NCBI GenBank assembly: GCA_001724265.1
Contig: MEDY01000066.1
Span: 1-64,000 of the forward strand
Source: Rhizaria sp. SCN 62-66
Lineage: Eukaryota
Reading direction: 5' to 3'
Length of the DNA stretch: 64,000 nt
A model generated the notes under the pieces. The model saw only the letters and a list, made by a program, of their open reading frames with translations. It was not told where the DNA came from and made no database searches. Shown here piece after piece: positions 4,001 to 64,000 of this stretch. The translations under genes and the position numbers were made by a program. Each line of letters starts with the position of its first letter. Position 1 is the stretch's first letter.

Positions 4001-4469
4001 CGCCACCACCGCCATTGCTGCGGCGGCGGCGACTGCTGCGGCGACGGATGTTGCTGTCGCCGTCACACACACGACCGCTATCACTGCTGGTGCTGCTGCT
4101 ACTGCCGCGAACGCCACGACTGCTGCCGTCACCGCCAATGCGGCTGCGGCTACAACTGCGGCGGGTTTCGCGCTGGATCCATCGGCGCCGTGGCTGCTGC
4201 GCTGGGCCTTATACTCCCTCCCCATCGGGCTTTTTAAGGGGCTCTGGGCGCGCGTGGTGCCCTCTTCGTGGTGGGCGCTGTGGGGCCGCAACCTGCTCAC
4301 GCCGCACCCGGCCGTGGCGTACATCGTGCTGGCGGGTGCGACGCACTGGATCCTGGCCTACTCGCTCAACCTCCACACGTCGAAGCCCAAGACGAACCCT
4401 GTGACGGCCGTCAAGGGGGTCATGTGGGAGATCTTGGACCTGTTTGCGCTCGCGTTTCCGCGCAAGTGA
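1..4469 (+). CDS. 5'-partial large hypothetical multi-pass membrane protein (>1430 aa) with one in-frame TAG at 1210-1212
   Basis: Frame 1 is open from base 1 (poly-Asn, then acidic Ser/Asp tract) to 3056 apart from TAG 1210-1212. ORFs 307..1212 and 1288..3138 share this frame. Intron 3057-3229 (GTACT...TAG) joins in phase to ORF 3264..4469, which ends in TGA. Several hydrophobic segments lie in the C-terminal half. No family recognised. Confidence 0.75.
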
Positions 4470-5064
4470 GCGGGGGCGCGTGTGTGGCAAGCGAAACTAT
4501 GCAACTGTACGTGATATGCTCGGACTCTTACCGAAGTTGCGCAGTTGCATTAACGCGCGTCAAAAGACTTTTACACTCGAATATATGTTATAATAGTATA
4601 GAATACACACTTATAGTTAGTTTATCGTCTTTTAAGCGTCAAGTAATACTGTCTCATCCTTCAGAAGTGTTGTATGGGCTCTTCTCAAGTGCGCCTTCGA
4701 CATTGATCATTGACAGCCGGAAGTGGCGAGGCGGCAAGGGGTCGCAGCAGGCAGCAGGGAGGAGGCAAGGGCGTGGTTTAGAACACTGTGCGTGCGATCT
4801 ATCGACCGTAGAATACGGATTTATCCGTTCTTTGTCACATATTTGTGGTTGGTATATCATATCCTATTATTGATTTTTGCCTAAAATGTATAATTCTGGT
4901 GACCGCGCATTCACCCCGTGGTCCCGGGGCCTGCCTCTCGCCCAATGCCGCAGCTTCACGCTTCCTATCGTCCTCCGCATACCCACGAATCCATTAGCTG
5001 AAGCATCATGACTCATGCGTGAACATGCCTTATTACTTACGAATATTGTTGTATTCTTCTTTAG

Positions 5065-7536
5065 ATGGGCCAGACTGCGTCGAGCACGAAGCCCGAAGAA
5101 GCTTCCCCCGCGGCCGCCCCCACCACTACCACGAGCAACGCCGCCGCCGCCCCAGCTTCTGCTGGTGCGACGTCTCCGAGCGACGCCCCCTTTGACGTGA
5201 CCGCCGAGCCCGTCGAGGAAGAGGAGGACCCCTTCGTCCTGGAAGGCCCCTTCGTGCAGGTGCTCTTCGGCTCCGAGACGCGCAACGCCCAGCAGCTGGC
5301 CTACAAGCTGGGCCAGCGTTACGCCATCAAGCACTCGCCGATCCCGGTCCGCGTGTCGTGCATGGACCAGTTCGAGCCTGACCACCTTGTCAAGTGTCCA
5401 TACGTGCTGCTCATCGTGTCGACGCACACTGACGGCCGGCCGCCCGAGAACGCCAAGCACTTTTACCAGTGGCTCGAGGACGCGACGCAGGACTTCCGCG
5501 TGCAGCGCGGGTACCTTAACAAGACCAAGTTCTCTGTCTTCGGCCTGGGCTCCTCGGACTACAAGAGCAACTTTAACGCCGTGGGCAAGGCCATGAAGGG
5601 CTGGTTCCGCGCGCTGGGCGCGAAGCCGCTGTGCAGGCACGCCGTGGCCGACTACTCCGACTCGGTCGACGCCGAGCTGGGCCCCGAGGCGCTGTTCGAG
5701 CAGTGGGCGCTGCAAGCCGTGCTGCCCGCCGTCAAGGCCGCGCTGAAGCAGGAGGCTGACAAGGCCGCCAACGCCGCCGCCATGGCTGCGCAGCTCAAGG
5801 CGCGCACCACCTTCGCCGCCGACGCCGACGCAGCCGCCGCCACCGCGGCCAACGGGGCCAGCGGTGCGGCTGAGCCGACCTGCGGCGAGGACGCCGGCGA
5901 CGACGACGAGGAGGAGGACGGCAGCATCAACGGCGACGACGGCGACGACTACGACGAGGACGAGGACGATGACGACGGCGGCGACGAAGGCGAGGGCGTC
6001 GTCGACCTGGAGGAGATGGGCAACGCCATGAGCGGCGACGGCGCCGACGGGGCCGCGACCACGGGCGCGAAGAAGGCGCGCAAGATGCTGTCGGAGCGGC
6101 AGCGCGCGAACCTTATCAAGCAGGGCTACAAGATCATCGGCTCGCACTCTGGCGTGAAGTTGTGCCGCTGGACCAAGGCGATGCTGCGCGGCCGCGGCGG
6201 GTGTTACAAGCACACCTTCTACGGCATCACGAGCTACCAGTGCATGGAGATGACGCCCTCACTGGCGTGCGCCAACAAGTGCGTCTTTTGCTGGCGCCAC
6301 CACACCAACCCCGTGGGCAAGGAGTGGCGCTGGGAGACGGACAACCCCGAGCTGGTGCTCAAGGGCGCGCTGGAAAACCACCGGAAGATGATCTACACGC
6401 TCAAGGGCGTGCCGGGCGTGCAGCAGGCGCGCTTCGAGGAGGCGCTTAAGCCGCGGCACTGCGCGCTGTCGCTGGTCGGCGAGCCCATTATGTACCCGTA
6501 CATCAACGAGTTCATGGCGCTGCTGCACAGCGAGGGCATCTCGTCCTTCCTCGTCACCAACGCACAGTTCCCCGAGCAGATGAAGACGCTGACACCCATC
6601 ACGCAGCTCTACCTCTCCATTGACGGGCACTCGCCCGAGTCGCTCAAGAAGGTCGACCGCCCGCTCAACGAGGACTACTGGGAGCGGTACATCAAGTGCA
6701 TGGAGCTGCTGCGCGAGAAGCAGCAGCGCACGGTGTACCGCCTTACGCTCGTCAAGGGCTTCAACATGGACGAGGTGGCTGAGTACGCGCGCCTGGTCAA
6801 CATTGCGATGCCGACCTTCATCGAGATCAAGGGCGTGACCTACTGCGGCGAGGGCTCCGGGCTCTCGATGGGCAACGTGCCTTTCCACGAGGAGGTGCAG
6901 AAGTGGTGCCTCGCGCTGTGCACGTACCTCGACGGGCGCTACGAGCTGGCGTGCGAGCACCGTCACTCGTGCTGCATCCTCATCGCTGACACCAAGATGA
7001 AAGGCGCCGATGGCACGTGGCACACCTGGATCGACTACCCCAAGTTCAACGAACTCGAGAGGCGCTACCGCGAGGAGGGCACGCCATTTACGGCGATTGA
7101 CTACTCGGCGCCGACGCCCGCGTGGGCTGTGTTCGGCGCCAAGGAAGAGGGCTTCGCGCCCACTGAGACGCGCGTCCGCACCAAGGGCAAGTTCTCCGAC
7201 GCCAAGGTCGCCAAGGCCAAGGCCGAGGCCGACGCAGCCGCCGCCGCCGCCGCTGGCGGTGCGCCAGAGGAAGACGGCAACGAGGGCTGCGGTGGCGAGT
7301 GCGCATGCTCGGGCAGCTCCGCCGCTGCCTCTGCCGACGGCGCAGCTGCGGCTGCCACTGTGAGTGGCTGCTGCAAATCCCAGTCTGGCGCTGCGAAGGC
7401 GGACGGCTGCGAGGGCGCCGGCGGTAAGGAGGAGGGCGGCTGCTGCAAGCAGAACGATGCTGCCGAGGCTGACAAGACTGCGAAGCAGGAGGGGTGCTGC
7501 GGCGGTAAGGACAACGGCCAGTGCTGCCGCGAGTGA
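5065..7536 (+). CDS. TYW1: tRNA wybutosine-synthesizing protein 1 (flavodoxin + radical SAM)
   Basis: Flavodoxin motifs (VLFGSETRNA, FSVFGLGSSDY), then GYKIIGSHSGVKLCRWTK, GGCYKHTFYGI, radical-SAM CANKCVFC, HCALSLVGEP and SFLVTNAQFP. Single ORF ending in TGA. Confidence 0.96.
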   Translation: MGQTASSTKPEEASPAAAPTTTTSNAAAAPASAGATSPSDAPFDVTAEPVEEEEDPFVLEGPFVQVLFGSETRNAQQLAYKLGQRYAIKHSPIPVRVSCMDQFEPDHLVKCPYVLLIVSTHTDGRPPENAKHFYQWLEDATQDFRVQRGYLNKTKFSVFGLGSSDYKSNFNAVGKAMKGWFRALGAKPLCRHAVADYSDSVDAELGPEALFEQWALQAVLPAVKAALKQEADKAANAAAMAAQLKARTTFAADADAAAATAANGASGAAEPTCGEDAGDDDEEEDGSINGDDGDDYDEDEDDDDGGDEGEGVVDLEEMGNAMSGDGADGAATTGAKKARKMLSERQRANLIKQGYKIIGSHSGVKLCRWTKAMLRGRGGCYKHTFYGITSYQCMEMTPSLACANKCVFCWRHHTNPVGKEWRWETDNPELVLKGALENHRKMIYTLKGVPGVQQARFEEALKPRHCALSLVGEPIMYPYINEFMALLHSEGISSFLVTNAQFPEQMKTLTPITQLYLSIDGHSPESLKKVDRPLNEDYWERYIKCMELLREKQQRTVYRLTLVKGFNMDEVAEYARLVNIAMPTFIEIKGVTYCGEGSGLSMGNVPFHEEVQKWCLALCTYLDGRYELACEHRHSCCILIADTKMKGADGTWHTWIDYPKFNELERRYREEGTPFTAIDYSAPTPAWAVFGAKEEGFAPTETRVRTKGKFSDAKVAKAKAEADAAAAAAAGGAPEEDGNEGCGGECACSGSSAAASADGAAAAATVSGCCKSQSGAAKADGCEGAGGKEEGGCCKQNDAAEADKTAKQEGCCGGKDNGQCCRE

Positions 7537-8392: not shown

Positions 8393-9163
8393 ATGCTCGG
8401 CAGTAGTGGCGGTGAAAACAAGACCCGCTATGTCGCTACTGCGCTTATTGCTGGCATCATCTTTGCCCTCGCTTGGTGGGTTATCATCGACGCTGGTGCC
8501 CAGGTTCGGTACCACGATGATCCTCGCCAGGTACGTCCTTCTCGCAACGGGCACAATGGCCTGCTATGCAGTCATCAAATGCGAAATGGATGCGGTTGGC
8601 TTTTATTTGTACTGTCAATGTCTTTATTTTGACGCTGCACTCACAACGCTACTCGCATGAACTCACCAAAACAACTCTACAATCTTCCTCTTTGTCTCGC
8701 GCTTAGATCAAGTTCATCTACGTGCTGCCCGGTATTCTCGCCTCGTTTGGCGTTCTGATGATTAACAGCTTTTCCTGGGAGGACTTTGCTGGTGAGGGCT
8801 TCTCTGAAGTCAACGCGAAGCGGTACGTATTCAATATTTAGCGAAACAATACTAATACGTGGGTGTCGCTAACTGAGTTGTTATCAACATGATTTGCTCA
8901 GACAGAAGTGTTTTTAGCTCCCTCACTCATTGTCATATGTTTTATTCTTTTCTTATTCGCTCCTCTACAGTGCCAAGTTCTGCTTCTTCTTCGGCATGGT
9001 GACCCTGATCTGCACTCTCTTCGGCGCTCTCTGGGTTGCCATCGACTACTATTTTACTAGCTCCATCCCCAAGAGCGACTGGCCCGGTGCGGCGATCATC
9101 ATCAACCTGTTTTTGCAGTTTGTATCGGCTGTTGTTCTCCGCGTCGGCCGCCTCTCACACTAA
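8393..9163 (+). CDS. Vps68/TMEM50 (UPF0220) family small 4-TM protein
   Basis: Exons 8393-8530, 8707-8822, 8971-9163 join in frame. Motifs AGIIFALAWWVIIDA, LPGILASFGVLMINS, AKFCFFFG and WPG match the family. Stop TAA. Confidence 0.85.
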
Positions 9164-9481: not shown

Positions 9482-12400
9482 TTACATGTAAAACGACTTC
9501 TCCCAGAGCTCGGGGTGTAGGCCCTCGCTCCAAACCTCTGGCTCGCCGTTCTTGCCCGCAACCGCCGCGGCCGCCGCGAGCGCCGCGGCGCCCGACCAGG
9601 CGCCGCCGCCGATGGAGGAGTTGTTCATCGCGCGCTTCGAGATGGCGTCGACAGTATACTTGCGCGAGAGGTACTTCATCTGCGTGCACATCGAGTGCGC
9701 GTGTTGGGCCACGCCGGGCACGGCGCCCGTCTTGGCAATGCGCTGCGTGTTGTGCGCGAGGTAGTACGTCAGTTCCTGGATCTCGTCCATCGTCAGGCCA
9801 CCCTGCTGCGGCTGCTGCGGCTGCCCGGCCGTTGCGCCGTCTTGCTCCGAAATCAAGCCGTCGCCCTCGTTGACAAGGACGGTGTAGCGCACCGGCCGCG
9901 GCGTACCGCGGTGCGCGGCGTGCGCCAGGAGGTAGAACTCGTTGCCTGTGAGCGCGGTGACGCTGGGCGAGTCGATGACCGTGCCTGGCACGGGCGCGTG
10001 CATCGTGGGGTGGGTGGTGTAGCAAGACGGGTGCGACAGCGGCACGCTATAAGGAACGCTGCTGGCTTCACCAGTCGAAGCAGTACGAGCACTGGAACGA
10101 GCGCCAGAGCCAGGGGTTGTCGTTTTCTTTGTCGTCGTTTCTGTTTTGATGTCACTGCTGATGTTAGAATCGTCACCAGCAGCGCTGTCATTGCTGTTTT
10201 GCTTGTTGACGTGCAACTCTGCAACGACCTCGGGATCAGGCCTTTGTCCGAACCCAGCAACACCGCCGCTACCCGCGCCAGTTTTGCCGCCCTTGCCGCC
10301 GGGAAGCTCCTTGGGCCAGAAGCGCACGCTGTGGCGTTTGGTGCACAGCACGACAAGGATCTTGGGGTTGTACGCCGGGTCCAGACTGCGGCAGGCCATC
10401 TTGATCGCCGCCGTCTCCTGCTGCGTCACCTTGTGCTCCTCATGTTCGTTGATGCCGTCGCGGAAAAAGAGGATGCGCTCGGGGATGCGCCCCGTCTGCA
10501 GCAGGAACTGCGTGATGTGCCTGCGCACAGCGAACATAAGGTGCTCGACCGGCGTCACCTCGCACTCGACGCCCGTCTGCAGCGTGATGCCCGCGTATCG
10601 CGTCGCCTCCAGGTCGCGGCTGCCTATCACGCACGCGTGCGAGTACTCGTTCACCGGCAGCGCGCCCGCGCCGCCGGCCGCGGAGCCCTGCGCCTGTGCG
10701 TGGCTGCCGCGGATTTTGTGGTGCCGCAACGGGTGGTCCACGTCCAGCCCCAGCACCAGCGACGGGGCCTCGAGCATCACCTTGGGCAGCGAGAAGCGGA
10801 AGTTGACGCCTCCCAGCTTGGTATTGAGTTTGAGCACAAGGTTGTGGTAGTATGCCGGCGGCAACGGCTCGCGCGAGAGCATCTTGTCGCTCGCGATGCC
10901 CTGCGTCACGACGCCGTAGCGCGTGAGGGCGAGGCGCTTGAGCGCGTCGTACAGCGGGTCGTTGCGCGGTGACGAGCAGAGGAGGAAGACGACATCTGCG
11001 CGCGCGGCCGGGCGCATCATGACGCGGTGCAGCGTCTCCTCCAGCTGCGTCGGGTTGCGAACCGTAAGCACGTCGCGCAGCGGCGCGATCGACAGGCCCA
11101 AGTCCGCCGCCGTCGACATGAGCTGCGCGAAGAAGGCCTTGATCACGGCGGGCTGCACGGGGGCCGCGAGCAGGAACAGCGGCGCCGCGACGGGGACCGG
11201 GGCCACGAGCCGGCGCGAGCGGGCCGGCCACGCGCCGAGGACCGGGATCGTCTCGGTGCACACGGCCGCCGCCGTGGGGGCCAGCGTTGGAACCTGCTGC
11301 GTTGCAAATGCGCTCGCAGAGTCCTTAGACGCGTTCGCGGCATTGGCGGTGAAGGCGAGAGTGTGGGGGCCGAAGTTGAGCAAGCTGTCATTGGTAACGC
11401 GAGCGATCTTGTTGCTGATGTCTTTGGAGCTCATGTTGATGTCGTCATCGTCATCATCAGAGTCCACCATCGCAGTACCCTTGCTGCCGCGAGCGCGCGC
11501 CTTCGAGCCAGAGTCAGCACTCGCGTCACCGTAGCCGTGGTCAGAGTGAACGCAGTCAGCCGCAGTGACGATGAGCCGTGCGGGGACCGTGTTAGCGCAC
11601 TCGCTGGAGGTGTACAGCCGTTCCACGACGCTGTTGTCGAGCGGGTCAACTGTGCTCAGCGCGGCGCCGGCAGGCGGGAACATGCCGTGGCCCGCGTTGT
11701 GACCGTAAGAGCCCGCGCTCACGCTCCCGTTTGGGGGGAAGTGCAGCGACTGCGCGAGGACGGGGCAATTCGGATCACAGCAGAGAGACTTTGCTGCGTG
11801 GTCTAACGGGTCCGGCTTGACTAAGAACCTGTAGGGGTCGCGATCATCATCAGCATCAACATCAGCACTCGCAGAAGCGCTCGTACTCGTCGCACTCTTA
11901 CTCTTAGCGGGCTTATTCGTGCTCGAGTTCATGTCAGTGATGTTGCTGTCATTGTTTAGCACAGCAGTGATGTGCTTTTTGGTCGTTGAAACAGCGTCAC
12001 TCGGTGTCTTGGCTGCCTCTGACAGCACCATCATCTCACGGCGCGCTGCGACAGCAACGCTGTTGTCGGCGTCACTCTTCGCGTTCGCGTTGTTCTCGGT
12101 GCTGTTGTAGTACTGGCTAAGAACGACAGCATCCTCAGCACGAATAATACCCGCAGAGAGCTTCTTCTCGCGCTTGCCTTTCGCCTTACTAGTCGCAGCA
12201 ACGGTCTTAGCCGCGGTCGTGGCTGCGGCGGTGCTCGCGCCACGACGCTTCTTCGCATTCTTAGACTTCGCATCACTGTCACTCCCACTGCCGCTGCCAC
12301 TATCACTACCGCTGTCATCAGCGGCGTTCGCGCGAGCACCACCGCTCTTGGCGATGTTGCCTGCGGCGGTGATGGCGTGGGGAGCCAGTGCCGCGGTCTT

Positions 12401-16781: not shown

Positions 16782-17333
16782 TTAGTAGGCCTTGGTGGAC
16801 GACGAGAAGGGGTTATCGTTCTCGAAGGGGTTGGGCTGCGCGGACGCGGTGGGCGCGGCGGGCGCGGCGCGGTGGCCGTCCTTGTTGCTCGAGGCGGCGG
16901 CGCCGGGCACAGGCTGGCCGCCCGCGGTGGTGTTGGAGGGCTGGTAGTTGAGCTCAATGCCGCGGTCAATGCCGAAGCAGAAGAAGAGGCAGTTGACGAC
17001 GCCGATGGTGCCGGCGACGGCGGCGACGAGGATCTGGTACCACTTGGCCTGCTGGATGGTGAAGACGGCGACAAAGATGTACGTCGCGCCGAGGCCGAAG
17101 AAGGGGACGAGGAAGCGGAACCAGCGGAAAACCTTGGCCATGCGCAGCTCGGCGACGAGAAGGAGCGTGCCGAAGAAGATCTGGTAGACGCAGGCGATAA
17201 CGGACTTAAGCGAGATGGTGATGTTGATCAGGCCGAAGATGGCGACGACGAGGATGGCGCACGACGTCGCGATGCCGAGGGTGGTCATCAGGCCGCGGAC
17301 GCCCTTGCCGGAGAGACACTCTTTGAGACCCAT
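16782..17333 (-). CDS. Golgi membrane protein, TVP15/COPI-associated family
   Basis: 183 aa with 3-4 hydrophobic helices, a Y..FFG.LLLVAE...WFRFL..FFGLG..YIF pattern and two C-terminal NPF motifs. Stop TAA. Confidence 0.7.
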   Translation of the reverse strand: MGLKECLSGKGVRGLMTTLGIATSCAILVVAIFGLINITISLKSVIACVYQIFFGTLLLVAELRMAKVFRWFRFLVPFFGLGATYIFVAVFTIQQAKWYQILVAAVAGTIGVVNCLFFCFGIDRGIELNYQPSNTTAGGQPVPGAAASSNKDGHRAAPAAPTASAQPNPFENDNPFSSSTKAY

Positions 17334-26120: not shown

Positions 26121-26639
26121 GCTGAAGACACGAAGACGCAACGCAAAGCAAAGCAACGCGACGCAAAGCAGACCGGGGGAGAGTGGCAGCGGCGAGAGAG
26201 AGAGGAAGTGGGGGGGTGAGGGCGGATTGGCAATGGTGGGGTTTGGGAGTAACGGTGTTTGGGAAGAGGGTGTGTGGTGGGAGAGCATGCGCAAGCGAAG
26301 CGGATACAGAACGCAATGTATGTGCCACATAACGTTCAAGGATATAATGTGGGCTTGAGAGACAAAAGCGAAGCTTTAGGATGCGGTTTCAACGTTGCAA
26401 AGAGTCGAAGGCGGGGAGAAAGGGCTGACGAGGGGCGAGGCAAAAGTAGCACATTCTGGAGGTATAGCTTACCTCAGAACGGCACCGTGACGCAACACCT
26501 GCATAATACTTCTCATGAACAGTCTGTGCAAGGAATATCATGTCCTGAATACAGCCTTAGTACGCGCAAAATTGCCTGCTTTTCTGATATCTGGGCGCGT
26601 GTGTGTGGCAGGCTTCCATCACCCATCCACTTGCAGCCT

Positions 26640-32544: not shown

Positions 32545-32642
32545 TGCCGGAAACGACAAGCAAAAGCGCTTTGACGGTCACGTTAAGGCACATGCAAAGG
32601 GCGGAATGACTGCACTCGGACTTGCTTCGCAGCACATGCCTA

Positions 32643-48176: not shown

Positions 48177-48707
48177 TTACGCAGCCTTCTTGGAGAGCTC
48201 AGCAAGCTCGCGGACGTTCTTGTCCGCCTCCTGAAAAACACGCAGAGACACACAAAACGCGGAATAAAAGGCACAAGATGTGAGTGCATAAAAATTAAAC
48301 CAAAGCGATAATATACAAAGCAGAGTATGGTATAATGACAGTAAAATTAATATCTCTTAGAGAGCATTAAGGTGCTCAAATGTTGCATTTAGTATGCGTA
48401 CCTGGAAGCGCTTCTGGTGGACCTCGACGGCCTTCTCGAGCTTGGCCATCTCGGCCGTGTTGGTCTCGATGATGCCCTTGATCTCGGAGCGAATCTCCGG
48501 CAGCGAGTCCTGCAGAAAGAGGCGGCCGACAGAGCGGTACACCGTGGCCTCCTCGGGGAGGTCCTGGAGGTCGGCCAGAGTGAGCTCGGAGCGGCGCTTG
48601 ATCGTCGTCGCCTGCATGAACTGGTTCTTGGTCAGGAAGAGCGTGCGCTCGGAGGCCTGGCGCAGCTGGAAGGCCTTCATCAGCTCCTCGTTCGTCACGG
48701 CGGACAT
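48177..48707 (-). CDS. PFDN1: Prefoldin subunit 1 (beta-type)
   Basis: Exons 48707-48402 and 48230-48177. ELMKAF, RRSELT..L.DLPEEATVYRSVGRLF and EADKNVREL. Stop TAA. Confidence 0.85.
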
Positions 48708-52100: not shown

Positions 52101-52774
52101 ACTGGGCCTATAACGCCGACTCGCTGGCGCTGCTTCAGAAGCACTACCAGGACGCCGAGCGCAAGCTGCCGCAGAGCGACGTCGAGGCGCTGATCAAGTC
52201 CGAGATCGCGCTGGCGGGCGCCTTCAACAAGCGTCAGCTCGTCTTCGGTATGCTGGACCAGCGCATGCACACGCGCGATGAGGTCAACACGGCCGACCTT
52301 TACCGCGAGGTCATGCTCGAGGTCATGGGCTTTGAGCCCACGCCCGGCACTAACATGGTCGCGTCCTTCGGCCACCTCGCCGGCGGCTACGATGCGCAGT
52401 ACTACGGCTACCTCTGGTCCGAGGTCTACGCCGCTGACATGTTCCACTCGCGGTACGTCTTTCAGTGAATGTATTCGTACTTATGTGCATAACGACCCCA
52501 CTGTCTGCTTCATACTACATGCTTAAATTTTTATTCGTTTTGCCAACGACTATGTTCTCAACTCTCACTTTATTGCTTTGCTTTTTGTTGCTTTTGTATT
52601 TTTCACTCTCATCACAGCTTCGCTAAGGAGGGCGTGCTGAACCCCTCTGTGGGCCTTGCATACCGCCGTAAGATCCTCGAGAAGGGCTGCACTGAGGACG
52701 CCGCTGTGCTGCTCAAGGACTTCCTCGGCCGCGAGCCCAGCGACGACGCGTTCCTCAAGTCCAAGGGCCTCTAA
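49140..52774 (+). CDS. M3-family metallo-oligopeptidase (thimet oligopeptidase/neurolysin/Prd1-like) with N-terminal presequence exon
   Basis: Exons 49140-49559, 49899-50207, 50430-51721, 51889-52452, 52618-52774. Motifs VTLKTPDY.P, AKLLGF.NHA, YMDLHPRQGKYSHAA, zinc motif HEFGH, DAVEAPSQLLENW, FGHLAGGYDAQYYGYLWSEV and FLGREP. Stop TAA. First exon is less certain. Confidence 0.93.
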
Positions 52775-53336: not shown

Positions 53337-54615
53337 TTACTTCTTGTTCTTCTTCTTATTGTACTTGTCGTAGACGTTCTCGAACATGTTCTCGTCGTAC
53401 GAAGGGTCGCGCGCGCGCGCCGCACCGGCCTAAACAAAGAGTGAAAGAACGCACAAAGTAGCGAAGACAAGATAGAAAGGTGAGAAAATGATCATATGTT
53501 GACGAATTGATTACATACGTCGTAAAGGTGTCATAGGTAAATAGAAATAAGACAATATGACAATAAAAACACGATATATGCTGCAGTCATTAGCGTAAAC
53601 ACATACCTGGCGCTTGATGCGCTCCTGGAACTGCTCGTAGGTCTCGTCCTCGGGGATGTTCTCGGCCTTAGCGGCCTCTGCCTCGGCCTCGCCCTCCTCG
53701 CTGGCGCGGCGCTCTGCCTCGCGGGACTCGCGCAACGGCGCATCCTTAAGCGGGAAAAACTCCTTGTCCCACACGAAGTCGGTGGCGAGCCCGACATCGG
53801 CGAAGAAGGTCTTGAGCTGGCCCGCGACCAGGTCCTTGCACTTGCCGCCCGGCACGTGGAGGTGCAGCTGGACGAGGCGGAAGTGGCCCGGGGTAGCCGT
53901 GCGGAGGTAGAAGCGCAGCTTCTCGTTCTGGATCGTGGGGAAGGACGCCGAGGTGGAGTCCTTGAGGGCGGAGAGGAAGCCCTGCAGCATCGACAGCGAG
54001 GCCTCATTCGTCTCCTTCTGCTCGGGGTAGTTCGTCAGCAGATCCGGGTGCACCTTGGTGGCCAGAGAGCGCAGCACGGCGCTCAGCAGCGGCACCTTGG
54101 CCGCGGCCTCCTTCACCGCGGGGGCCTTGGACGCCGTCACGCGGCCCTGAAGAGAGCAACAATCAAAGCAACAGAAGAGAAGAAAGGTGGGAGAGATGGA
54201 TGTAAGAGCATTAAGAAAGCTGCCGTAAACTTAGTTAGTTGCCGTTGTTGCTGCGCAGACAGGATGAAACGACACGTACCTGGCTAGTGCCAACGCGCTG
54301 GAAGCCCTTGCTGTTGGTAGTAGCAGCAGCGGCGGCAGCGGGCTTAGCAGCAGCAGCAGCAACAGCAGCGGCAACAGGGGCAGCCTTAGCAGCGGCGGCG
54401 GGCTTGGCGGCGGCGGGCTTGGCGGCGGCGGCGGCAGACGAGAAGAGGCGGCCAGCGGGGACGACGGCGACGGGCTTGGCGGCAAGAAGCGTGCTGAAGC
54501 GCTGCTGCTGGGAGAACGAAGCAGAGACAGCAGGAGCAGAGATCGCGAAGGCAGCGGTGGCGCTGGTGAGAGCGGTGGCGCCGCGCGAGGCAGCGCGGAG
54601 GAAACGGAGGGACAT
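53337..54615 (-). CDS. Mitochondrial DUF4460 (TCAIM N-terminal-like) protein
   Basis: Exons 54615-54280, 54146-53607, 53429-53337. Arg/Ala/Ser-rich presequence MSLRFLRAASR, then LR..ATKVHPDL...P.QKETNE.SL..L..L.FY pattern. Stop TAA. Confidence 0.75.
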
Positions 54616-55403: not shown

Positions 55404-57354
55404 ATGAACTCGAACGCGTCTGACGCTGCCATCAGCAGCAGTAGCAGCAGCCTCTCTGCCCCCGCTGCCTCTGCCTCTGCTGACTCAGTGTCCTCGGCCG
55501 TGCGCCGCCTGGAGGCCCGCATCGCGAACTTGGCCTCCGCGCTACACTCCGCGCAGCAGGAGCTGTCGGAGCGCACTGTCGCGCTACACAACGCGTCCAC
55601 GGCGCTGGCGGCGCTGCAGGCGCGCGCGGACGTGTCCCGCGGCGAGGCCGACGCGGCTGTGGCGCGCTACCACGACTGCGACGCGCGGCTCCAGGCCTGC
55701 CGGCTCAGATGCAACGCGCTCGAGAGGGACATCCTGACGCTCAAGGCCACGCACGCGGCTGAGGTCGAGGCCTTCGCGCTCGCCGCCAAGGTTGCCGACG
55801 GGCTCGTGCTTGACGCGTCCGCCGCCAGGGACGCGGCGCAGGAGGACGCCGCCACCGTGCGCAGGGCCGCCGCGGCCCGCGAAATGGAGCTGCAGGTACG
55901 TGCAGTTGGCACTAAAGATCAACGCATGGAGCTGGAAAACCTATATATTATTTCGTCGTGTATCTTCTGTATGTTTGTCCTTTTATCAACGTCATTTTAT
56001 GTCTCACTTTTCTTTTTCTGTTTTACTCTGGCTTTTGCTTTCCTTGTCCGTGCAGGCCGCGCACGACTCAGCCTTGCGCATGATGTCTGCGCAGCACGAC
56101 GCGATCCGCGCGCAGCTCGAGCTGCAGTTTGCCTCCGACCTGCGCGTCCTCAAGTCCGCCGCGCGCACGCAGGCCGAACCTGCGCAGCGCGAGCGCGCCA
56201 CGCGCACTGCGCACCGCAACGCTGCCAGTGCCAAGAGCGACCTGTGCGCGGCGCGCGACGCGGCCGACGCGCTCCAGCACGAGGTGCTGCTGCTCAAAGA
56301 GGAGAACGCGCGGCTGCGGCTCGCGGCGACCGAGGCGGGCGTGCGCGCGGGCGCGGGCGCTGAGTCGAGCGCGGCGGCGGCCAGCGCGGCGCAGCAAGTG
56401 CAGGCGCTGGCGGCCGAGAACGAGGCGCTGCGCGGTCGCTTCCGGCAGCTCGCTCTCGTGAGCAAGGGCGAGGTCGAGCGGCTGCGGGCGCTTGCGCAGC
56501 ACCTGACCGAGCTGGCGGTTAAGGCCGGGGTCGAGCCGGGGCAGCTCATGCCGGCGCACCTGGCGCCCGCCAACGCCAGCGCTGCCGCGAATCCTGCGGC
56601 TGCGAACAGCGCGAATGTGAGCACTCCTCACAACGGGAGTGCCAGCGCCGTGGGTGCGGGCGCGAGTGCGAGTATGGCAACTGGGAGCAAGAGCGCAATC
56701 GTGCCCCCGACGCCGTACGTGGGCATCACGTCGCCGCAGACGTCGCGCCCGCGCCCCGGCTACGCTGCCTCTGCCACTGCTGCCGCTGCGAGTCATAACA
56801 GCGGTGCATACATTGCGGGGAGCTCAAACAGCAGCAGCGGTGTCGGTCAGCTGACAAAGCCGAGCCGCACTGGCCAGTACTATGCCGGTAACGGTAACGG
56901 TTATAACAACAGCAACGACTACGAGGACGACTACGGCGACGACGACAACTACAGTGGTGACGCGTCCAACTACAACAACGGAACTCATGCATATGGGTAC
57001 GCTGCGGGCGTGCATGGTGCGGCGCCGCAGGGGGCGCTCAATGTTGGCGACACTTTACACCGCGCCGCCCTCAGTCAACAGCAGCCTCAGCCGGCCGCCC
57101 ATGGTCACTCGGCTCAGCAGCAGCAGAGGCGTCTGTCGTCTACTGGCACTGGCGCTGGCGCTGGGTTCAAGGCGAAGGCGGCTGGCAGCGGCAGCGGCAG
57201 CCGCGTTAGCTCCCCGCTGATGAGTGCGCGCGAGCGCGCGCGCGCGGTGGTCGACGCCAAGCAAAAGGCCGGGCTCAGTAACTCAGGCACTTATAGTGGC
57301 GGCAGCAGTGGTGGTAACAGTCGGCCGGCAACCTCGCGGCTCCCCGCTTACTGA
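55404..57354 (+). CDS. Hypothetical coiled-coil protein with disordered C-terminus
   Basis: Exons 55404-55895 and 56056-57354 join in phase 0 across a GTACG...CAG intron. Heptad-like Ala/Leu/Glu/Arg region. Stop TGA. The true start may lie further upstream. Confidence 0.75.
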
Positions 57355-57624: not shown

Positions 57625-60600
57625 TTAGACCAACGCAAGCGCGTCAGTCATCATTTGTTTGTGCCACACGACGAGCTTGGCGTACTCTTCGCTGAGAATG
57701 CGGGCCTTGACCTCGACCTTGCTCAAACCGCGGTACTCATGGGCGTTGCAGCCGCTACTATTCACACTCGCGTTGAGACTTGTGTTAACGCTTGGCTGCG
57801 ACTGTGGCGGCTGCTGCAGCAGAGCGCGTAACTCCCACATCTTGCGCACATCTCGGGGCAGCTTCGACACGACCTTTTGGTGGAACTTTGCCAGAGTCGA
57901 GTACTCCTGAGTCAGTACCGACAGCTGCGTCTGCGCGTGCGCGTCCCGAGCGTCCCGGTCGCTCGCGTCAACGGCACTCGTACTGGCACTCGCGCTGACG
58001 CTCTGGACAGGAACACTTGCGACCGAGGGGCTTGCATCAGAGCTGGAGTAAGCAGAAACTGCGGCAACATCCGGCTTAGTGCAAGGGGCAACAAATGCGA
58101 CATGAGTAGGGTTAATCGCGAAAGTTACAGGCTCTGCTTGAGCAGCAGCGGTGGCCACAGGGCCTGCAACTGCACGCGCCGCGATCGCAGTCGCAGTGCT
58201 GACTGTAGGCTCAACACCCACACTGCGAGTGACCGTGGGCACAGTGACCGTGGGCATTATAGGCACTGCGCTATTGTGAGTGACCGTGGGCGCCCTGGGC
58301 CGCGGGGTTATCGCGACAATCGGGGAGGTCTGCAAGTTGCTGTACGAGCACAGCTGTACGCTCGTCTTGGCGCTGTCGACGACATTGCTGGCGACACAGG
58401 GAGTGCTGTGCACGCTCACATCGCGGCTCGTCGCGGTCGTGTTGCGAGTGCTGCTTGACTGGCTAGTGAGAGCCGCGTTGGCGCTGCTGCTGCTGTTGTT
58501 GCTGCCGATCGAGCGGACTGGTGTCTGCAAGCACTGATTGTCGGCCTTGGTGTTGTTTTCAGTGTTGTTGCATGCAGATGTGTTCGTGTTCGTGCCAGTC
58601 GTGTTACTGTGGCTGGTGCTCGAGCAAGAACTGGCGCCGCTGTGCGTAGCATGAATATGTGCGTTATTGTAAGTGCCCTGCACGGTCAGCGTGACGCCGC
58701 CATCAGCCGTCGTGACCACTGAGGGCCTGCCGTCGCGGTGCAAGGGCACCGTGAACACCTGAGTGCCAGGAGGAGCACTTACATTCTGAGCAGTTACACT
58801 CTGACCACTCACGTATGAAGCGCTGACAGCAACGCCGGGAGCGCTGACACTGTGGCAAGGGACATGAGCGCTGGCGCTGCTGCCGCCACGGGTGATCGTG
58901 ATCTGCGTGGTCATCGGCTGTTGTTGCTGCAGTTGTTGCTGACGCTGCTGTTGCTGCAACAAAAGCTGTTGCTGCTGTTGTTGTTGTTGTTGTCGTTGTT
59001 GTTGAAGCTGTTGCATCTTGTGGTTGTGATAAATGCTGGTATTGTTGTTGTTGTTAATGTCCCTGATGCAAGGCTTGCTACCGGCGTTGCAAGCGACACT
59101 CACACTTGCGCGACTGGGTACACGGGCATTGATGCTCGCACCAACAGACCTGCTCGCACTCGCATGCACGCCCACACTCGTCCGCGCATGGCCGCCAGCA
59201 ACGCCAGCATTCGCACCCTGCATCGTGACACTGGGCTTGCCAACCGTGTTCGCCTTGGTGTACGCAGCTGCAGCCGGATGAGAAAAGGCTCCAACTTGAA
59301 GCCGCACATTGGCAAGCAAGTTTTTGAGCCCTGTTGCGTCAGCGTTTTTAACCGCAACAGTCGCCTTTCGCGCGCTCTCTGCCGCGGCCCCCGCCTCGGC
59401 CATAGTAGCGCGCATGGCGCCCTGCTGCACCGACTGGACCCAGTCCCAGAGCAACACGGAGCCGGCGGCCGGGTCCGCCGCCAGAGCCGCCGCGAGGGTC
59501 GCCGGCAGCGCGGGCAGGGCGGGGGGCAGCGGGGTGTCAGGCGCGGCTGCGAGCGCGGCAGCAAGCGCAACGGGGGGCGCAGCAGCGGGCGCGGCGGGAG
59601 GCGCGGGGGAGGCAGGGACGGGCAGGGCGGGGGGCAGAGTGGGCGGGGCGACTGAGGGCTGAGACTGGATCGGGGGCACGGGCACAGCGGCAGAGAGCTA
59701 GGGCTGAGGCTGATACCGAGGCTGGGACTGCAGCTCAGGCTCAGCCTGAGGCTCCGACTAAGATTGGGGCCGATGGGAGCAACAGCACTGCGACTGCGAG
59801 TGCTTGTTGCAACTCATGTTCGTCGCCTTGGGCACAGAAACAGACACGTGCATTGACACCGGCTTACACACACTTGCGAGGTCGCTGTCACTGTTTTCAG
59901 TGCCACAGTCACCCTTACACGCGCGCCCCTTAGAGGCCGCCGCAGCCGTCGCCGCGGCAAGCGTCGCCTTGTTCGCCGCCGCGGCCGCAGCCTCCGCCGC
60001 CGCCGCGGCCTGGCCCGCGGCCCGCTGCGTTGCTGAGGTCACGGCTGCAGTGGCGGCGCGGGCCGCGCTCGCAGCGGCGGCCACCACGGCGGCCTTCTTG
60101 CTACTGGTGCTGTGACTAAGGGGGTACTTAGACAAGTCGCCGCAAGGGCGACCGTGGGAAAAGTCAGGAAACCAGTCAGCGGTGGGGGCGCCATGCGCGG
60201 CCGCCAGCGCCAGAGCGGCGGGGCCAGTGAGCTTCGCACCCACAGGCACTGCGGTCGGCACAGCTGCAGCATGCGCACCCACACCCGTGAGGCCACTGGA
60301 AGCGTGCGTGTTGTGGGCGCAGTGTGAGTTGGCGTGCAGCAGCGCGTCGTTGTACTCGTCGTCGTAGTGGTCGTTGGCGTCGTCTTGCTCCTGCTGCTGC
60401 AGCTGCTCGCAGTCGCCCAGGGGCAGGTCCTCGGGCAATAATACGGCGGCGGGGAATCGGGGGCGCAGTGCAGGCGAGTGGCGGCTCCACTTCTGTTGAT
60501 GCTCGTGGCGGCCTGACTTGTCGTAATGACGACTTGACTTTAGTTCGTATTGATTATTGCCGTGGTAAGTGTTGGCGCAGTGACTGAGCCTAGTCGGGTG

Positions 60601-63046
60601 AGGATGAGTGTTCATATTCGTGTTGGTGGCGTTTGCATCAAGACCATACTTCGTATACAGAGAGACACGTGTTGCATTGTTGCTATCGACGTTATCAGAA
60701 ACTCTGATGTCGACGGCAACACGCTCATCAGCGCCGGAAATGTTATACTCATTGTTGCTATTGTCATAACTGCGGCCATTATTGTTCATGTTAATGTTGC
60801 CGTCAACGACATACGCAGCGTCAGTCGCATAGTGACCCTGCGCAGCAGCAGCAGCAGCGGCACCGGCACCAGCAGAGTAAACGAAATGACTGTGAGCATT
60901 GTCGAGCTCGCCGTTCATCACATGGTCCTGGTGCTCCAGGTCTTGTGCCCTCACATATCCAGTAACAGCAGCAGATGCAGCAAAGTGACCGTGGGCGTCG
61001 CCACCATCATTGTAGCAGTGACCGTGGGCAGAAAGGGAGTGACCGTGAGCAGCAAAACGACTAGGACCGTGAGCATAGTCGTTGTCACGCTCACAGTCAT
61101 TGTTATCATCGTAGTCATAATCACCCTCGTCTTCGCAGTCAGCGTCATCATAATGACCGTGTGCATCGGCGTATTGACCATGGGCAGCCTCGTAGAGTTG
61201 TTGTTGCTGCAGTGCTGCCTTAGTAGCATCATACTCTTGTTGTTGCTGCTGCAGCGACGTCCTAACGTCGTCTGCCTTGTACGCAGCGCGCTTCGCAGCA
61301 GCCTTGGCCTTGGCAGCCGCGGCCGCGGTCGCTGAGGCACTCTGGGCGCGCACTTTGTCGACAATGACGCCGGCGCCGGTCACGGCTGAGCGCGCCTTGA
61401 GCCCCGCTGCAGCTGTGATGTGGGCAGCGGTTGCAGGAAGTTTCTTCGCGTTGCCGTAGCTGCAGTTAGCGTGGTTAGCAGTGTTGTTGGCTGAGCGGCG
61501 ACTGTGACGCTGCTGGTAATGACTGTGGGCGGCGTTGAAGTGACTGTGGGTCGGGTTGAAGTGGCCGTGGGCAGGATTGAAACGACTCTGAGCCAAAGCG
61601 GCATGCTAAACACTAGTGGCACTGCCCATAGCAATCTTACTCGCGTTTGATCCCTTTTTGCTCATGTGACCCTTCGCACTGTATGGGTGTGAGTTTTCAT
61701 CATACCCAGCCTCGTTTGCGCCGCCATGAGCGCTATTGTCGTCGCTGTCGCTCGTGCTAACGCTGTCGCTGGCGGCGGTGAGGCTGTGGTTCATTTTGTT
61801 GCTGTAGTAGTAATCGTACTCGTTGTTGTTGTCAGAGTCTGTCGCCTCCAGCAGCGAGTCAGAACGATCGTCGCGAGAGTCAAACTGACTGTGAACGTCA
61901 GAGTGACTGTGAGAAGCAGAGTCAGCGTGACTGTGAGCATCGGAGTGACCGAGAGCAGCAGAGTGACCGGGAGCAGCAGCGACGTCGGAGTCGGTGTGAC
62001 TGTTGTTGTTTGTGTTATTCAACTCACTCCAGTCACTCAGCTCGCAGTCGCTTGAAATCTTTTGAATTTGCTGCTGCTTCTGCTGCTGTTGCTGCTGGTG
62101 TTGCTATTTCTGCTGCTTCTTCTGTTGCCTCAGCCGCTGTTTCTGCTCGCGCGCCGCCTTCGCCGCCTTGGCGTTGTCGTCCTGCTGCTGCTGCAGCCGC
62201 GCGTCCTCGGCCCAGCGCGCTGAGGCGAGCATGTACCTTGTCAGCGATTCCTCTATCTCGTCGGCGACGTTAGCTGCAGCGGCCGCAGCAATTGCAGTCG
62301 GAGCAGTCGCTGTCGAAGGCGTGTCGGGAGAGCCTGCAAGTGCACTGGCTGCGCTGTTGTGAGTGAAGCCGTTTGTGTTGGGAGGAGCCCAGCGGCGCTG
62401 TAGCGTTGACAACGACTGCAGCAGTGAGTGGCTGTCGTTATCGTCGTTGTCAGCACTGGTTCTAGCAGTCGCATTATCAACCACAGGTGTGGCAAAAACT
62501 GAGACAGGAGCAGTTGCGTTTATAGCACTAGGCGCAGGAGCAACTATGTTGCGACTACTGACGCCAGCGTTTCCATTAACGCTGCTATTGCTGCTACGAA
62601 TGTTGGCAGTGACGCTCGCGAGTAGCAAGTCGGTCTTGACGTCCTCCGCAGTGCTGCCGTCCGTGAGCGTGGCCAGCGCGGCGTCTTCCGCGACGACGGA
62701 CTCCAGGTAAGACCGCAAGCGCGTCTGCGCCCAGCTCGTGTACTCGTCCATCGGCGCAGCAGGGGTGGTGTCTGCCGTAGCGGCGGGCTCAGCGTCGGAG
62801 GTAAATGTGGAGGAGGCTGGCAGCGTGGTCGGATCAGCTATGGGGACCTCGCTGAGCCAACGAACAGGAAAGAAAAAAGACGTGAATAGGGACACAGATA
62901 AGCCACAGTCAAAAGAAAACACGCGGATATGAATTAAAATCGATTAACACATAGACGTACGTGTCAACACCTGCGATAGAGCAGATCATAATCTTTGTCG
63001 CGGGACTATTGTCCTTCCAGCGGACGCTCATGGTGCTCGTGTCCAT
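57625..63046 (-). CDS. Large hypothetical low-complexity protein (about 1770 aa) containing four in-frame TAG codons
   Basis: Exon 63046-62961, GTACG...CAG intron, exon 62851-57625. ORFs 62104..62922, 61606..62022, 59758..61596 and 57625..59685 are all one frame, separated only by TAG at 62104, 61606, 59758 and 59698. Terminal TAA. Confidence 0.78.
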
Positions 63047-63709
63047 GGTGCTTTCCGGCGAACCGCGCTTGGAGACCTATACGTTTAAGACAGAAACTAT
63101 GATTTAAATATAGTATATAAACGTATTAGTTAAATAACTTTACTCAACCAATTTTCAACTTAACGAACAAACCACATCAAAATAGAACTTATTTGAGAGC
63201 TACTTCTTCTAGCCGTTGGAGCATCAACCGCAGTGGATCGATTGGTCAATTAGTCACCCAATCAGGCATTTGTTGTAACTCAGTGTAATGACCGCCAACA
63301 TTCACGAAATGAAACAAACGTGCACTATAATACCCCAAATCATCATGTAATCATCGTGAATCATGATCTGGCGGACAACTAACTCATCTCGACGCTTATA
63401 CAGTTGGTTTAAAAACTTTGTTTATTTGTTTATTTGTTTATTTCTTATTTTTCTTGTTCTACGCTACATAATAATAGCTTAGTAATATGATCTATGTTAC
63501 ATCCTACATATAAAGTGTTCCCCAGAATAACACCACGCGAGAAAAGAAACCTCTCACTCACATATCCCTCCTTAATCCTGCGGCAAAGCCCTCACCATTA
63601 ATCGCACACCCGACAGATCGATCGCCGCTTTATAAACTACAGCAGCAAAACCTGTTCTCCCCTCGCTTTCCCGCATCGTTAACAGTCACCAGGATCGCGT
63701 CCGAGCGCT

Positions 63710-64000
63710 TTACCAGGCGTGGCCGCCGCGGAAGCCCTGGCGCTGGTCCTGAAGCTTCTCGACGCGCTCGGAGAAAAGCTGGACCTTGTCCACGAACTGC
63801 ATCGCGAGCCGCTGCGCGCGGCTGACCGCGGGCGCAGTCACACGCAGGCACTTGCCCACGGTCGCCGCGGCCGCCGCGGCGGGGTCCTCCCACGCGGCCG
63901 AGAGCAGGCCCGCGTACATGAGCTTGGAGGCGACCGAGACGACGTCGTCCTCGGACATCTCGTACTTGGCCACGAGGTCCGAGAGCGAGATGGTGGTGTA
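63710..64000 (-). CDS. 3' end of eIF3c-like PCI-domain protein (5'-partial)
   Basis: YTTISLSDL..KYEM....V.SVASKLM....L.AAW..P...RAQRLAMQF.DKV resembles the eIF3c PCI winged helix and following helix. Stop TAA. Confidence 0.7.
   Translation of the reverse strand, partial: YTTISLSDLVAKYEMSEDDVVSVASKLMYAGLLSAAWEDPAAAAAATVGKCLRVTAPAVSRAQRLAMQFVDKVQLFSERVEKLQDQRQGFRGGHAW

What the first reader, a model, noticed from the sequence alone, without database searches (positions are those of the whole stretch)
4467..63712. Stop-codon census: 19 of 19 genes end in TAA (15) or TGA (4), none in TAG
Seen: after splicing, the TGA-terminated genes end at 4469, 7536, 31796 and 57354. The TAA-terminated genes end at 9163, 9482, 16782, 22762, 24387, 30870, 34694, 35285, 41798, 42736, 48177, 52774, 53337, 57625 and 63710. 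The other TAG ends in the ORF track that I checked in real gene frames (for example 3138, 30227 and 51734) fall in introns. Inference: in exons this GC3-rich, TAG would normally be well used as a stop, so its absence is the expected counterpart of UAG reassignment. The sample is small.
Basis: partly seen in the sequence, partly recalled or inferred. Interest (0 to 1): 0.7.

Follow-up and report, generated by a model that had tools for sequence, protein, structure and literature searches.

The report
Protist reads UAG stop as glutamate
A single-celled eukaryote from wastewater and bioreactor sludge has stopped ending its genes with UAG and appears to read that codon as glutamate while keeping UAA and UGA as stops, a version of the genetic code not found in the papers searched; even its own translation-termination gene contains a UAG.

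Summary
Observation confirmed: all 19 window genes end in TAA (15) or TGA (4). Alone this is weak (P about 0.004-0.014), but genome sampling makes it firm. Of 147 modelled gene ends 84 are TAA, 58 TGA, 5 TAG; 4 of those 5 are model artefacts. Inside genes, in-frame TAG occurs 55 times against 3 TAA and 0 TGA. The only eRF1 gene found carries an in-frame TAG, unchanged in spliced RNA contigs, at a column that is Glu in 219 of 236 homologues (Gln 0); a related contig has GAG there. A kinase TAG sits at a hinge that is Glu in 147 of 148 homologues. One nuclear tRNA gene has a CUA anticodon and a tRNA-Glu-like body; eRF1 has T32S, G57S, T58K. Best reading: UAG = Glu, UAA/UGA = stop, with UAG the rarest sense codon. 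Gln is the main rival: many TAGs lie in Gln-rich tracts. UAG-only reassignments are known (Leu, Gln, Ser), and UAG = Glu is known only with UAA also recoded, so this is a new variant. Lineage not placed; no proteomics.

The parts
4467..4469 (+). TGA stop, gene 1-4469 (no Pfam family in last exon)
7534..7536 (+). TGA stop, TYW1-like flavodoxin/radical SAM wyosine gene
9161..9163 (+). TAA stop, UPF0220 gene; profile matched to 160/166
9482..9484 (-). TAA stop, PAZ-Piwi (Argonaute-like) gene
16782..16784 (-). TAA stop, COPI-associated protein gene
22760..22762 (+). TAA stop, phospholipid methyltransferase gene (model overshoots to TAG 22789, artefact)
24387..24389 (-). TAA stop, villin-headpiece gene; profile matched to 36/36
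30868..30870 (+). TAA stop, C-terminal-motor kinesin gene
31796..31798 (-). TGA stop, Erv1/Alr gene
34692..34694 (+). TAA stop, RNA polymerase Rpb3-like gene
35285..35287 (-). TAA stop, coatomer WD40 gene
41796..41798 (+). TAA stop, bacterial-type ribosomal protein S6 gene
42736..42738 (-). TAA stop, phytochelatin synthase gene
48177..48179 (-). TAA stop, prefoldin subunit gene
52772..52774 (+). TAA stop, peptidase M3 gene; profile matched to 456/457
53337..53339 (-). TAA stop, DUF4460 gene
57352..57354 (+). TGA stop, coiled-coil gene (no Pfam family)
57625..57627 (-). TAA stop of a 1772-codon low-complexity frame that holds four in-frame TAG and no TAA/TGA
63710..63712 (-). TAA stop, PCI-domain gene cut by the window edge
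1210..1212 (+). in-frame TAG read as sense, in a Gln-rich run of the first gene
62104..62106 (-). in-frame TAG read as sense, inside a poly-Gln tract
61606..61608 (-). in-frame TAG read as sense
59758..59760 (-). in-frame TAG, probably sense; the model bypassed it with a doubtful 114-base, 55% GC, stop-free intron
59698..59700 (-). in-frame TAG read as sense, Gln/Pro-rich context
3136..3138 (+). TAG inside intron 3057-3229 (not a codon)
30225..30227 (+). TAG inside intron 30210-30372 (not a codon)
51732..51734 (+). TAG inside intron 51722-51888 (not a codon)

Best explanation
The nuclear code of this organism has two stops, UAA and UGA, and reads UAG as glutamate. Shown: TAG is absent, or nearly so, from gene ends and present in frame inside conserved genes, including eRF1; a tRNA gene with a CUA anticodon exists; eRF1 is changed at residues that are near-invariant elsewhere. 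Inferred: (1) the tRNA(CUA) arose from a tRNA-Glu and is charged with Glu by GluRS; (2) T32S, G57S and T58K weaken eRF1's grip on the G of UAG, so the tRNA wins; (3) CUA cannot wobble to UAA, so UAA stays a stop; (4) with one tRNA copy found, and possibly some residual eRF1 competition, UAG is read poorly and is the rarest sense codon; (5) TAGs at constrained sites come from GAG (synonymous), while TAGs in Gln-rich tracts come from CAG by C-to-T transition and are tolerated Gln-to-Glu changes.
For: Census: 147 ends TAA 84/TGA 58/TAG 5; internal TAG 55/TAA 3/TGA 0. In the subset not fetched for TAG: 133 ends 75/53/5 and internal 36/2/0 in 168,378 codons; random nonsense transitions would give a TAG share of 0.72, observed 36 of 38, P = 0.0004. 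eRF1: single hit besides Pelota among 3 of 3 candidates; TAG aligns to human E107; column E219 D16 V1 of 236. The TAG is unchanged in a spliced contig of run X5 (0 other letters over 1232-1828, joined across intron 1), in a PolyA-RNA contig of X7, in a DNA contig of X3 and in locus L170. A related contig in X4 has GAG at this codon; of 24 listed exon-2 differences decoded, 21 are synonymous and 2 conservative. TKL kinase on C18: TAG at the hinge after the gatekeeper, E in 147 of 148 aligned homologues (149 given), including the two closest, and 12 of 13 own paralogues; a database copy of this protein stops at the TAG (P0365). Cdc25-like gene: TAG opposite E in 5 of 5 shown alignments, human Cdc25B/C. 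UBE2J1-like: D37 N33 H17 T13 S11 E7 G2, Q0 of 120. Summed column log-ratio over three sites: E +6.0, D -2.2, Q -13.2. tRNA(CUA) at G000:C84:76008-76080 (-): ARAGORN and Rfam 58 bits, followed by poly-T, between protein genes; acceptor plus T stems match Glu-CTC 21/24, Glu-TTC 18/24, Asp 14/24, Gln 7-8/24; it has U11-A24, U13-G22 with A46, no base 47 and A37, listed as Glu determinants for E. coli (PMC9976931, passages). eRF1 T32S (T in 197 of 197 with a residue), G57S (G 236/236), T58K (T 235/236); T32 binds the G of UAG and is T32G in Iotanema (PMC5304391, passages).
Against: Contexts lean to Gln: 21 of 41 TAG sites are Gln-leaning against 76-82% for CAG/CAA and 19-21% for GAG/GAA; 3 of 36 lie in poly-Gln and 0 of 36 in acidic runs. 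A diverged ubiquitin copy has TAG where the host gene has CAG, and one kinase-Sel1 paralogue has Q opposite a TAG. The best PDB matches to the C18 kinase have S (4 shown) or Q (1 shown) at the hinge; 3 of 31 metagenome eRF1s have Q at 107; the closest database eRF1 (P0004, 84%) has V. The X4 GAG rests on one contig of depth 4.9, 31 letters from its end, and 88 difference rows were not shown. Only two columns are truly decisive; three tested columns were uninformative. The anticodon loses C36, a strong GluRS determinant in E. coli, and amber tRNAs are often charged by GlnRS there; the tRNA's U11-A24, U13-G22 and short variable loop are shared by this genome's tRNA-Gln(CTG). No protein-level data.
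Confidence: 0.83

Rival explanations
1. UAG = Gln with UAA/UGA as stops (Iotanema / Hartmannula type): the Glu-like tRNA(CUA) is in fact charged by GlnRS through U35.
For: Gln-rich contexts of many TAGs, including 3 of the 5 in the window; TAG opposite CAG in the ubiquitin copy and opposite Q in a paralogue; amber tRNAs are often Gln-charged in E. coli (PMC9976931, passages).
Against: Needs E107Q in eRF1 (Q 0 of 236) and E-to-Q at a kinase hinge (Q 0 of 148); summed log-ratio Q -13.2 against E +6.0. In poly-Gln tracts TAG (3) is rarer than non-synonymous GAG (16), AAG (21) or CGG (14), against CAA 392, not what a synonymous transition from CAG should give. The tRNA's stems match Gln tRNAs at only 7-8 of 24.
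Confidence: 0.07
2. UAG is ambiguous: read as Glu part of the time and as Gln or as a stop otherwise (leaky suppression, an intermediate stage rather than a finished reassignment).
For: TAG is the rarest sense codon, 36 of 168,378, half of ATA; one tRNA copy was found; contexts are a Glu/Gln mixture; two modelled TAG ends lie 8 and 16 codons before a TAA/TGA and stay unresolved (L061, L253 minus strand); eRF1 keeps E55, NIKS and YxCxxxF.
Against: No homology-fixed gene end with TAG was found; the essential eRF1 and a Cdc25-like gene with three TAGs need efficient read-through; mixed contexts follow from mutation alone.
Confidence: 0.08
3. Standard code; internal TAGs are pseudogenes, assembly errors, hidden introns or RNA-edited sites, and the missing TAG ends are chance or codon bias.
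For: One kinase-Sel1 copy (C148, L156) with three TAGs also has an in-frame TAA and a TAG opposite a Trp, and looks like a pseudogene; TAG hits in kinesin and DEAD searches were intron acceptors.
Against: The TAG in the single eRF1 is the same in DNA and in spliced RNA contigs of three studies, with no edit; 36 TAG to 2 TAA to 0 TGA does not fit nonsense decay; a folded tRNA(CUA) and altered eRF1 motifs exist.
Confidence: 0.02

Closest known systems
Oligohymenophorea sp. PL0344 code, UAG = Glu, UAA = Lys, UGA stop (PMC10553269; passages seen)
   Same: UAG read as Glu; tRNA(CUA) most like tRNA-Glu.
   Different: There UAA is also a sense codon and there are 10 tRNA(CUA) genes with thousands of aligned UAGs; here UAA is the main stop, one tRNA(CUA) was found and UAG is the rarest sense codon.
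UAG-only reassignments: rhizarian exLh (Leu), Iotanema spirale (Gln), phyllopharyngean ciliates (Leu, Gln), Protocruzia tuzeti (Gln), Scotinosphaera (Ser) (PMC5304391 and PMC11687900; passages seen)
   Same: UAG sense while UAA and UGA terminate; tRNA with CUA anticodon; change at eRF1 T32 as in Iotanema (T32G there, T32S here).
   Different: The amino acid: none of the listed cases is Glu. Here the tRNA body is Glu-like, and eRF1 itself carries a UAG.
UAR = Glu codes: peritrich ciliates; Blastocrithidia (PMC11687900, PMC10553269 passages; PMC12153298 abstract start)
   Same: UAG read as Glu.
   Different: Both UAA and UAG are Glu there; here UAA is not recoded (84 ends, 3 internal of which one is an artefact and one in a likely pseudogene).
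Release-factor self-regulation by read-through: plant eRF1 circuit (PMC5397192; listing and abstract start only); bacterial RF2 internal UGA and giant-virus eRF1 read-through
   Same: A termination factor whose own message depends on read-through.
   Different: Here the internal codon is a reassigned sense codon in a cellular eRF1 coding exon; a regulatory role is untested, and a relative has GAG there.

Membership tests
UAG-only nuclear stop-to-sense reassignment (exLh / Iotanema type) | UAG not used as terminator | tested here: met
   5 of 147 modelled ends, 4 shown to be artefacts, 1 unresolved; none fixed by homology
UAG-only nuclear stop-to-sense reassignment (exLh / Iotanema type) | In-frame UAG in conserved, expressed genes | tested here: met
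   eRF1, TKL kinase, Cdc25-like, UBE2J1-like, zf-PARP; eRF1 TAG in spliced RNA contigs
UAG-only nuclear stop-to-sense reassignment (exLh / Iotanema type) | UAA and UGA kept as stops, not sense | tested here: met
   ends TAA 84, TGA 58; internal TAA 3, TGA 0; selenocysteine UGA not examined
UAG-only nuclear stop-to-sense reassignment (exLh / Iotanema type) | tRNA with CUA anticodon and none with UUA | tested here: met
   one tRNA(CUA); no TTA or TCA anticodon among 22 pattern hits, a search limited to intron-less, short-arm tRNAs; Rfam scored 63 of 506 candidates
UAG-only nuclear stop-to-sense reassignment (exLh / Iotanema type) | eRF1 altered at UAG-contact residues | tested here: met
   T32S, G57S, T58K at near-invariant columns; effect on specificity not measured
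Iotanema / Hartmannula code (UAG = Gln) | UAG at conserved Gln columns and a Gln-type tRNA(CUA) | tested here: not met
   Q 0 of 236, 0 of 148, 0 of 120 at three columns; tRNA stems 7-8/24 like Gln
exLh / TARA ciliate code (UAG = Leu) | UAG at conserved Leu columns and a long-arm Leu-type tRNA(CUA) | tested here: not met
   no Leu at the three columns; 4-base variable loop
PL0344 code (UAG = Glu, UAA = Lys) | UAG = Glu | tested here: met
   genomic inference from few sites
PL0344 code (UAG = Glu, UAA = Lys) | UAA read as Lys, UGA sole stop | tested here: not met
   UAA ends 84 of 147 genes, including eRF1
Context-dependent stop/sense codes (Condylostoma, Blastocrithidia type) | Same codon used both internally and as terminator | tested here: inconclusive
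   two TAGs 8 and 16 codons before TAA/TGA unresolved; no homology-fixed TAG end
Any of the above | Residue inserted, shown at protein level | not testable with these tools
   needs mass spectrometry
Rhizaria (lineage of exLh) | Amino-acid insertion at polyubiquitin junctions | tested here: inconclusive
   no junction assembled; monomers begin with two extra residues, Met-Ser, a weak hint only

The most novel reading that the evidence does not exclude
The organism is caught in mid-reassignment: eRF1 still half-recognises UAG and competes with a single Glu tRNA(CUA), so UAG is a slow, leaky Glu codon, and the one UAG placed in the highly codon-biased eRF1 gene is a feedback switch by which eRF1 limits its own synthesis. 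Chance of a TAG in a 441-codon gene of this class is about 5% (7 TAG in 59,093 codons at GC3 of 0.85 or more); against it, a related contig has GAG and P0004 has Val at that codon.
Probability: 0.15. Interest if true: 0.92.

Novelty: new variant of a known kind. Interest (0 to 1): 0.8.

Why it matters
It adds a nuclear code table (UAG = Glu; UAA and UGA stop) that was not in the papers found, in a GC-rich, intron-bearing eukaryote unlike the AT-rich ciliates where most variants occur. All three parts of the mechanism sit in one genome: the depleted stop, the suppressor tRNA and the altered eRF1. Because UAG is still very rare as a sense codon, the genome looks like an early stage after codon capture and offers a direct test of codon-capture against ambiguous-intermediate models. 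It is also the single step that would precede the PL0344 code. The organism recurs in wastewater samples of several studies, so metaproteomics can test it. Practically, standard annotation truncates its proteins (database entry P0365 ends at the TAG), and a natural Glu amber tRNA with a matching eRF1 is of interest for code engineering.

Tried and rejected
Gln from window contexts alone: dropped once the tRNA and conserved columns pointed to Glu. A DNA search with tRNA-Gln(CTG) found only its 5 own copies, no CTA variant. The first self-trained gene model degenerated into spurious introns and was replaced. TAG hits from family searches: of 11 kinase loci with a TAG in the match, the model kept a TAG inside the gene in 4 (L127, L155, L156, L159), and two more proved to hold in-frame TAGs on later reading (L157, L253); the kinesin and DEAD hits were intron acceptors. 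Uninformative columns: CaMK-like kinase (Y/A in PDB; A9 E9 D7 K3 Q1 among 37 paralogues; one search found nothing at a stricter cut-off), PTEN C2, zf-PARP. The periodic TAG pattern gave 339 hits, only 100 listed, many Ser-Ser repeats; I picked 37 by eye plus one kinase stretch, and the model found in-frame TAG in 10 of these 38 loci, so that set is not a random sample. The all-against-all translated comparison of paralogues was mostly noise. Lineage: eRF1 tree joins the query only to P0004 with support; cluster look-ups gave no name for close relatives; no polyubiquitin junction. A second eRF1 search for close relatives found none above 70%. Tandem stops: TAA 41 in frame against 27 and 29 out of frame, TAG flat at 23/26/25, a mild effect not pursued. 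PMC12440015 held no passage on T32 or T58.


Full report
Observation. The window is G000:C66:1-64000, from a 34.9-Mb eukaryotic assembly in 714 contigs. All 19 stated coordinates carry TAA or TGA. I built a gene finder that treats TAA, TAG and TGA alike, each allowed as an end or, at equal cost, inside a gene. It recovered 18 of the 19 ends exactly and overshot TAA 22762 by 9 codons in the other. Three ends are also fixed by Pfam profiles that run to the last residues. Zero TAG in 19 has P = 0.014 at a share of 0.20 and 0.004 at 0.25: real but thin.

Wider census. On the window, C1:1-200,000, C2:1-200,000 and the loci fetched from the same genome, 147 distinct ends of models scoring 60 or more were TAA 84, TGA 58, TAG 5, and internal stops were TAG 55, TAA 3, TGA 0. 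That set includes loci fetched because they held a TAG. Without them: 133 ends 75/53/5 and internal 36/2/0 in 168,378 codons. Four of the five TAG ends are artefacts: the window overshoot; L034, whose frame ends earlier in TAA; C2:19560, where the true frame reads through a TAG inside a PARP-type zinc finger; and L011, whose gene runs on for about 4 kb. L061 is unresolved, as is one further end seen later in L253. Nonsense decay by transitions would give a TAG share of 0.72; 36 of 38 has P = 0.0004. In the window itself, TAG stands in frame at 1210 (+) and four times in a 1772-codon frame free of TAA and TGA, 57625-62943 (-).

The tRNA. A pattern search for a CTA anticodon loop gave 19 hits; ARAGORN on 17 of them (two were further copies of a tRNA-Leu hit) found one tRNA with anticodon CUA, at C84:76008-76080, minus strand. 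Rfam scores it at 58 bits against a cut-off of 29. It is followed by a T run and lies between protein genes of the same GC-rich type. It is not a mutated tRNA-Gln: a DNA search with tRNA-Gln(CTG) does not find it, and its acceptor and T stems match Glu-CTC at 21 of 24, Glu-TTC at 18, Asp at 14 and the two Gln tRNAs at 7 and 8 (the anticodon arm of Glu-CTC was mis-registered in that script, which does not touch these stems). It has U11-A24, U13-G22 with A46, no base 47 and A37, which are Glu determinants in E. coli, but it lacks C36, and some of these features are shared by the local tRNA-Gln (PMC9976931, passages). No TTA or TCA anticodon appeared among 22 hits of a second pattern; that search sees only intron-less, short-arm tRNAs, and Rfam scored 63 of 506 candidates.

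eRF1. The family search gave eRF1 on C63 and Pelota on C34, 3 of 3 candidates. eRF1 ends in TAA and has one in-frame TAG in exon 2, opposite human E107. That column is E 219, D 16, V 1 in 236 homologues and E 24, Q 3, G 2, K 1, TAG 1 in 31 of 32 metagenome loci. Four runs of three studies were laid on the gene. Run X5 has contigs joined across all three introns, and the one that crosses intron 1 covers the TAG with 0 other letters; a PolyA-RNA contig of X7 and a DNA contig of X3 also carry it unchanged. So it is not an assembly error, not intronic and not edited at the level that contigs show. A related contig in X4 reads GAG at this codon; among 24 listed exon-2 differences 21 are synonymous and two conservative. 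This datum is one contig of depth 4.9, and 88 rows were not shown. eRF1 also has S for T32, S for G57 and K for T58, columns that are T 197/197, G 236/236 and T 235/236; E55, S70, NIKS and YxCxxxF are kept. T32 contacts the G of UAG and is changed in Iotanema (PMC5304391, passages). The role of T58 in reading the third base is my recall, not checked (one search found no passage).

Which amino acid. A TKL kinase on C18 has TAG right after the gatekeeper. The column is E in 147 of 148 aligned homologues, including the two closest (50-54%), and in 12 of 13 own paralogues, although the best PDB chains are KSR (S) and TNNI3K (Q). A Cdc25-like gene has three TAGs, one opposite E in human Cdc25B and C. 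A UBE2J1-like gene has TAG at a column of D37 N33 H17 T13 S11 E7 G2. Summed over eRF1, the kinase and UBE2J1 the log-ratios are E +6.0, D -2.2, Q -13.2. Three more columns said nothing. Against Glu: a context classifier puts 21 of 41 TAG sites on the Gln side, between CAG/CAA (76-82%) and GAG/GAA (19-21%); 3 of 36 lie in poly-Gln and none in acidic runs, though acidic contexts turn up in targeted loci; a diverged ubiquitin copy has TAG for the host's CAG; and in a kinase-Sel1 family TAG faces D twice and K, Q, T and W once each, the copy on C148 being a likely pseudogene. I read these as mutation-driven: CAG to TAG is the commonest route, and in poly-Gln tracts TAG (3) is rarer than GAG (16), AAG (21) or CGG (14), so it does not behave as a Gln synonym. 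At the sites where selection fixes the residue, it is Glu.

Mechanism. Shown: loss of UAG from gene ends, in-frame UAG in conserved expressed genes, a tRNA(CUA), altered eRF1. Inferred: eRF1 lost much of its hold on UAG, a tRNA-Glu copy gained CUA, CUA does not pair with UAA (argument as in PMC5304391 and PMC11687900, passages), and UAG came back slowly as a poorly read Glu codon: it is the rarest sense codon, 36 against 74 for ATA, and is rarest in high-GC3 genes (7 in 59,093 codons against 19 in 55,392). Confidence: UAG is sense about 0.96, Glu about 0.86 of that.

Comparison and novelty. The papers list UAG-only changes to Leu, Gln and Ser, UAR to Glu in peritrichs and Blastocrithidia, and UAG = Glu with UAA = Lys in PL0344 (passages of PMC5304391, PMC11687900, PMC10553269). 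Five searches showed no case of UAG = Glu with UAA as a stop; the library lacks most subscription papers and I read no supplements, where such a case could be listed. An earlier unchecked note of this scan, on another wastewater genome, also leaned to UAG = Glu (e1-7131282); it may be a relative and is not independent support. The lineage is not placed. Erv1 and a bacterial-type S6 in the window suggest ordinary mitochondria, unlike Iotanema's group (inference). The eRF1 stretch is held by bioreactor, wastewater and activated-sludge runs.

Most novel reading. The UAG in eRF1 could be a feedback switch, as in release-factor circuits elsewhere (PMC5397192, listing and abstract start; e1-5313713; bacterial RF2 recalled). 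Chance alone gives about 5%, and relatives lack the TAG, so I put this at 0.15.

Verdict. Observation confirmed, interpretation supported and sharpened to UAG = Glu; new variant of a known kind; interest 0.8.

Noticed in passing
L243 (G000:C681:2200-3600, +): A 47% GC frame fuses a diverged copy of the host ubiquitin to a Peptidase_S74 chaperone domain (Pfam), with one TAG where the host gene has CAG; looks like a virus-like or mobile insert that captured ubiquitin.
   Followed up: partly
L242, L244-L247 (ubiquitin genes): Ubiquitin occurs as single monomers that start with two extra residues (Met-Ser) and end three residues after the Gly-Gly; no polyubiquitin junction is assembled, and two copies on C3 have internal deletions.
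   Followed up: partly
L156, L157, L253 (G000:C148, C49, C9): A family of kinase plus Sel1-repeat genes of lower GC with several TAGs; the C148 copy also has an in-frame TAA in a poly-Gln run and a TAG opposite a Trp, so it is probably a pseudogene.
   Followed up: partly
window 9485-15844 (-): Single-exon 2120-codon Argonaute-like gene (PAZ and Piwi) swollen by long Ala/Ser/Asn insertions.
   Followed up: no
window 42739-47370 (-): Phytochelatin synthase domain inside a 1544-codon single-exon gene with about 1100 low-complexity residues after the domain.
   Followed up: no
G000:C1:1-200000 and C2:1-200000: Very long, intron-poor genes: models of 4000 to 11,000 codons, mean well over 1000, mostly low-complexity sequence.
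   Followed up: no
window stop codons and genome sample: The base after the stop is mostly G or A (TAA-G 52 of 82, TGA-G 30 of 57), whereas the base after internal TAG is mostly C (22 of 43); the eRF1 TAG is followed by A.
   Followed up: partly
window 24390-26121 (-): Gene reading as SH3-like, LIM-like repeats and villin headpiece (only the headpiece was confirmed by Pfam; the other domain names are from my reading of the sequence).
   Followed up: partly
L210 (G000:C32): Cdc25-like phosphatase gene with three in-frame TAGs within about 105 codons, the densest cluster seen.
   Followed up: partly
L183, L184, L199: Metagenome eRF1 genes from other organisms with in-frame TAA at conserved positions, i.e. 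other code variants, probably ciliates.
   Followed up: no
L126 (G000:C85), + strand 1177: One in-frame TAA near the start of a kinase model; may be a wrong model start.
   Followed up: no
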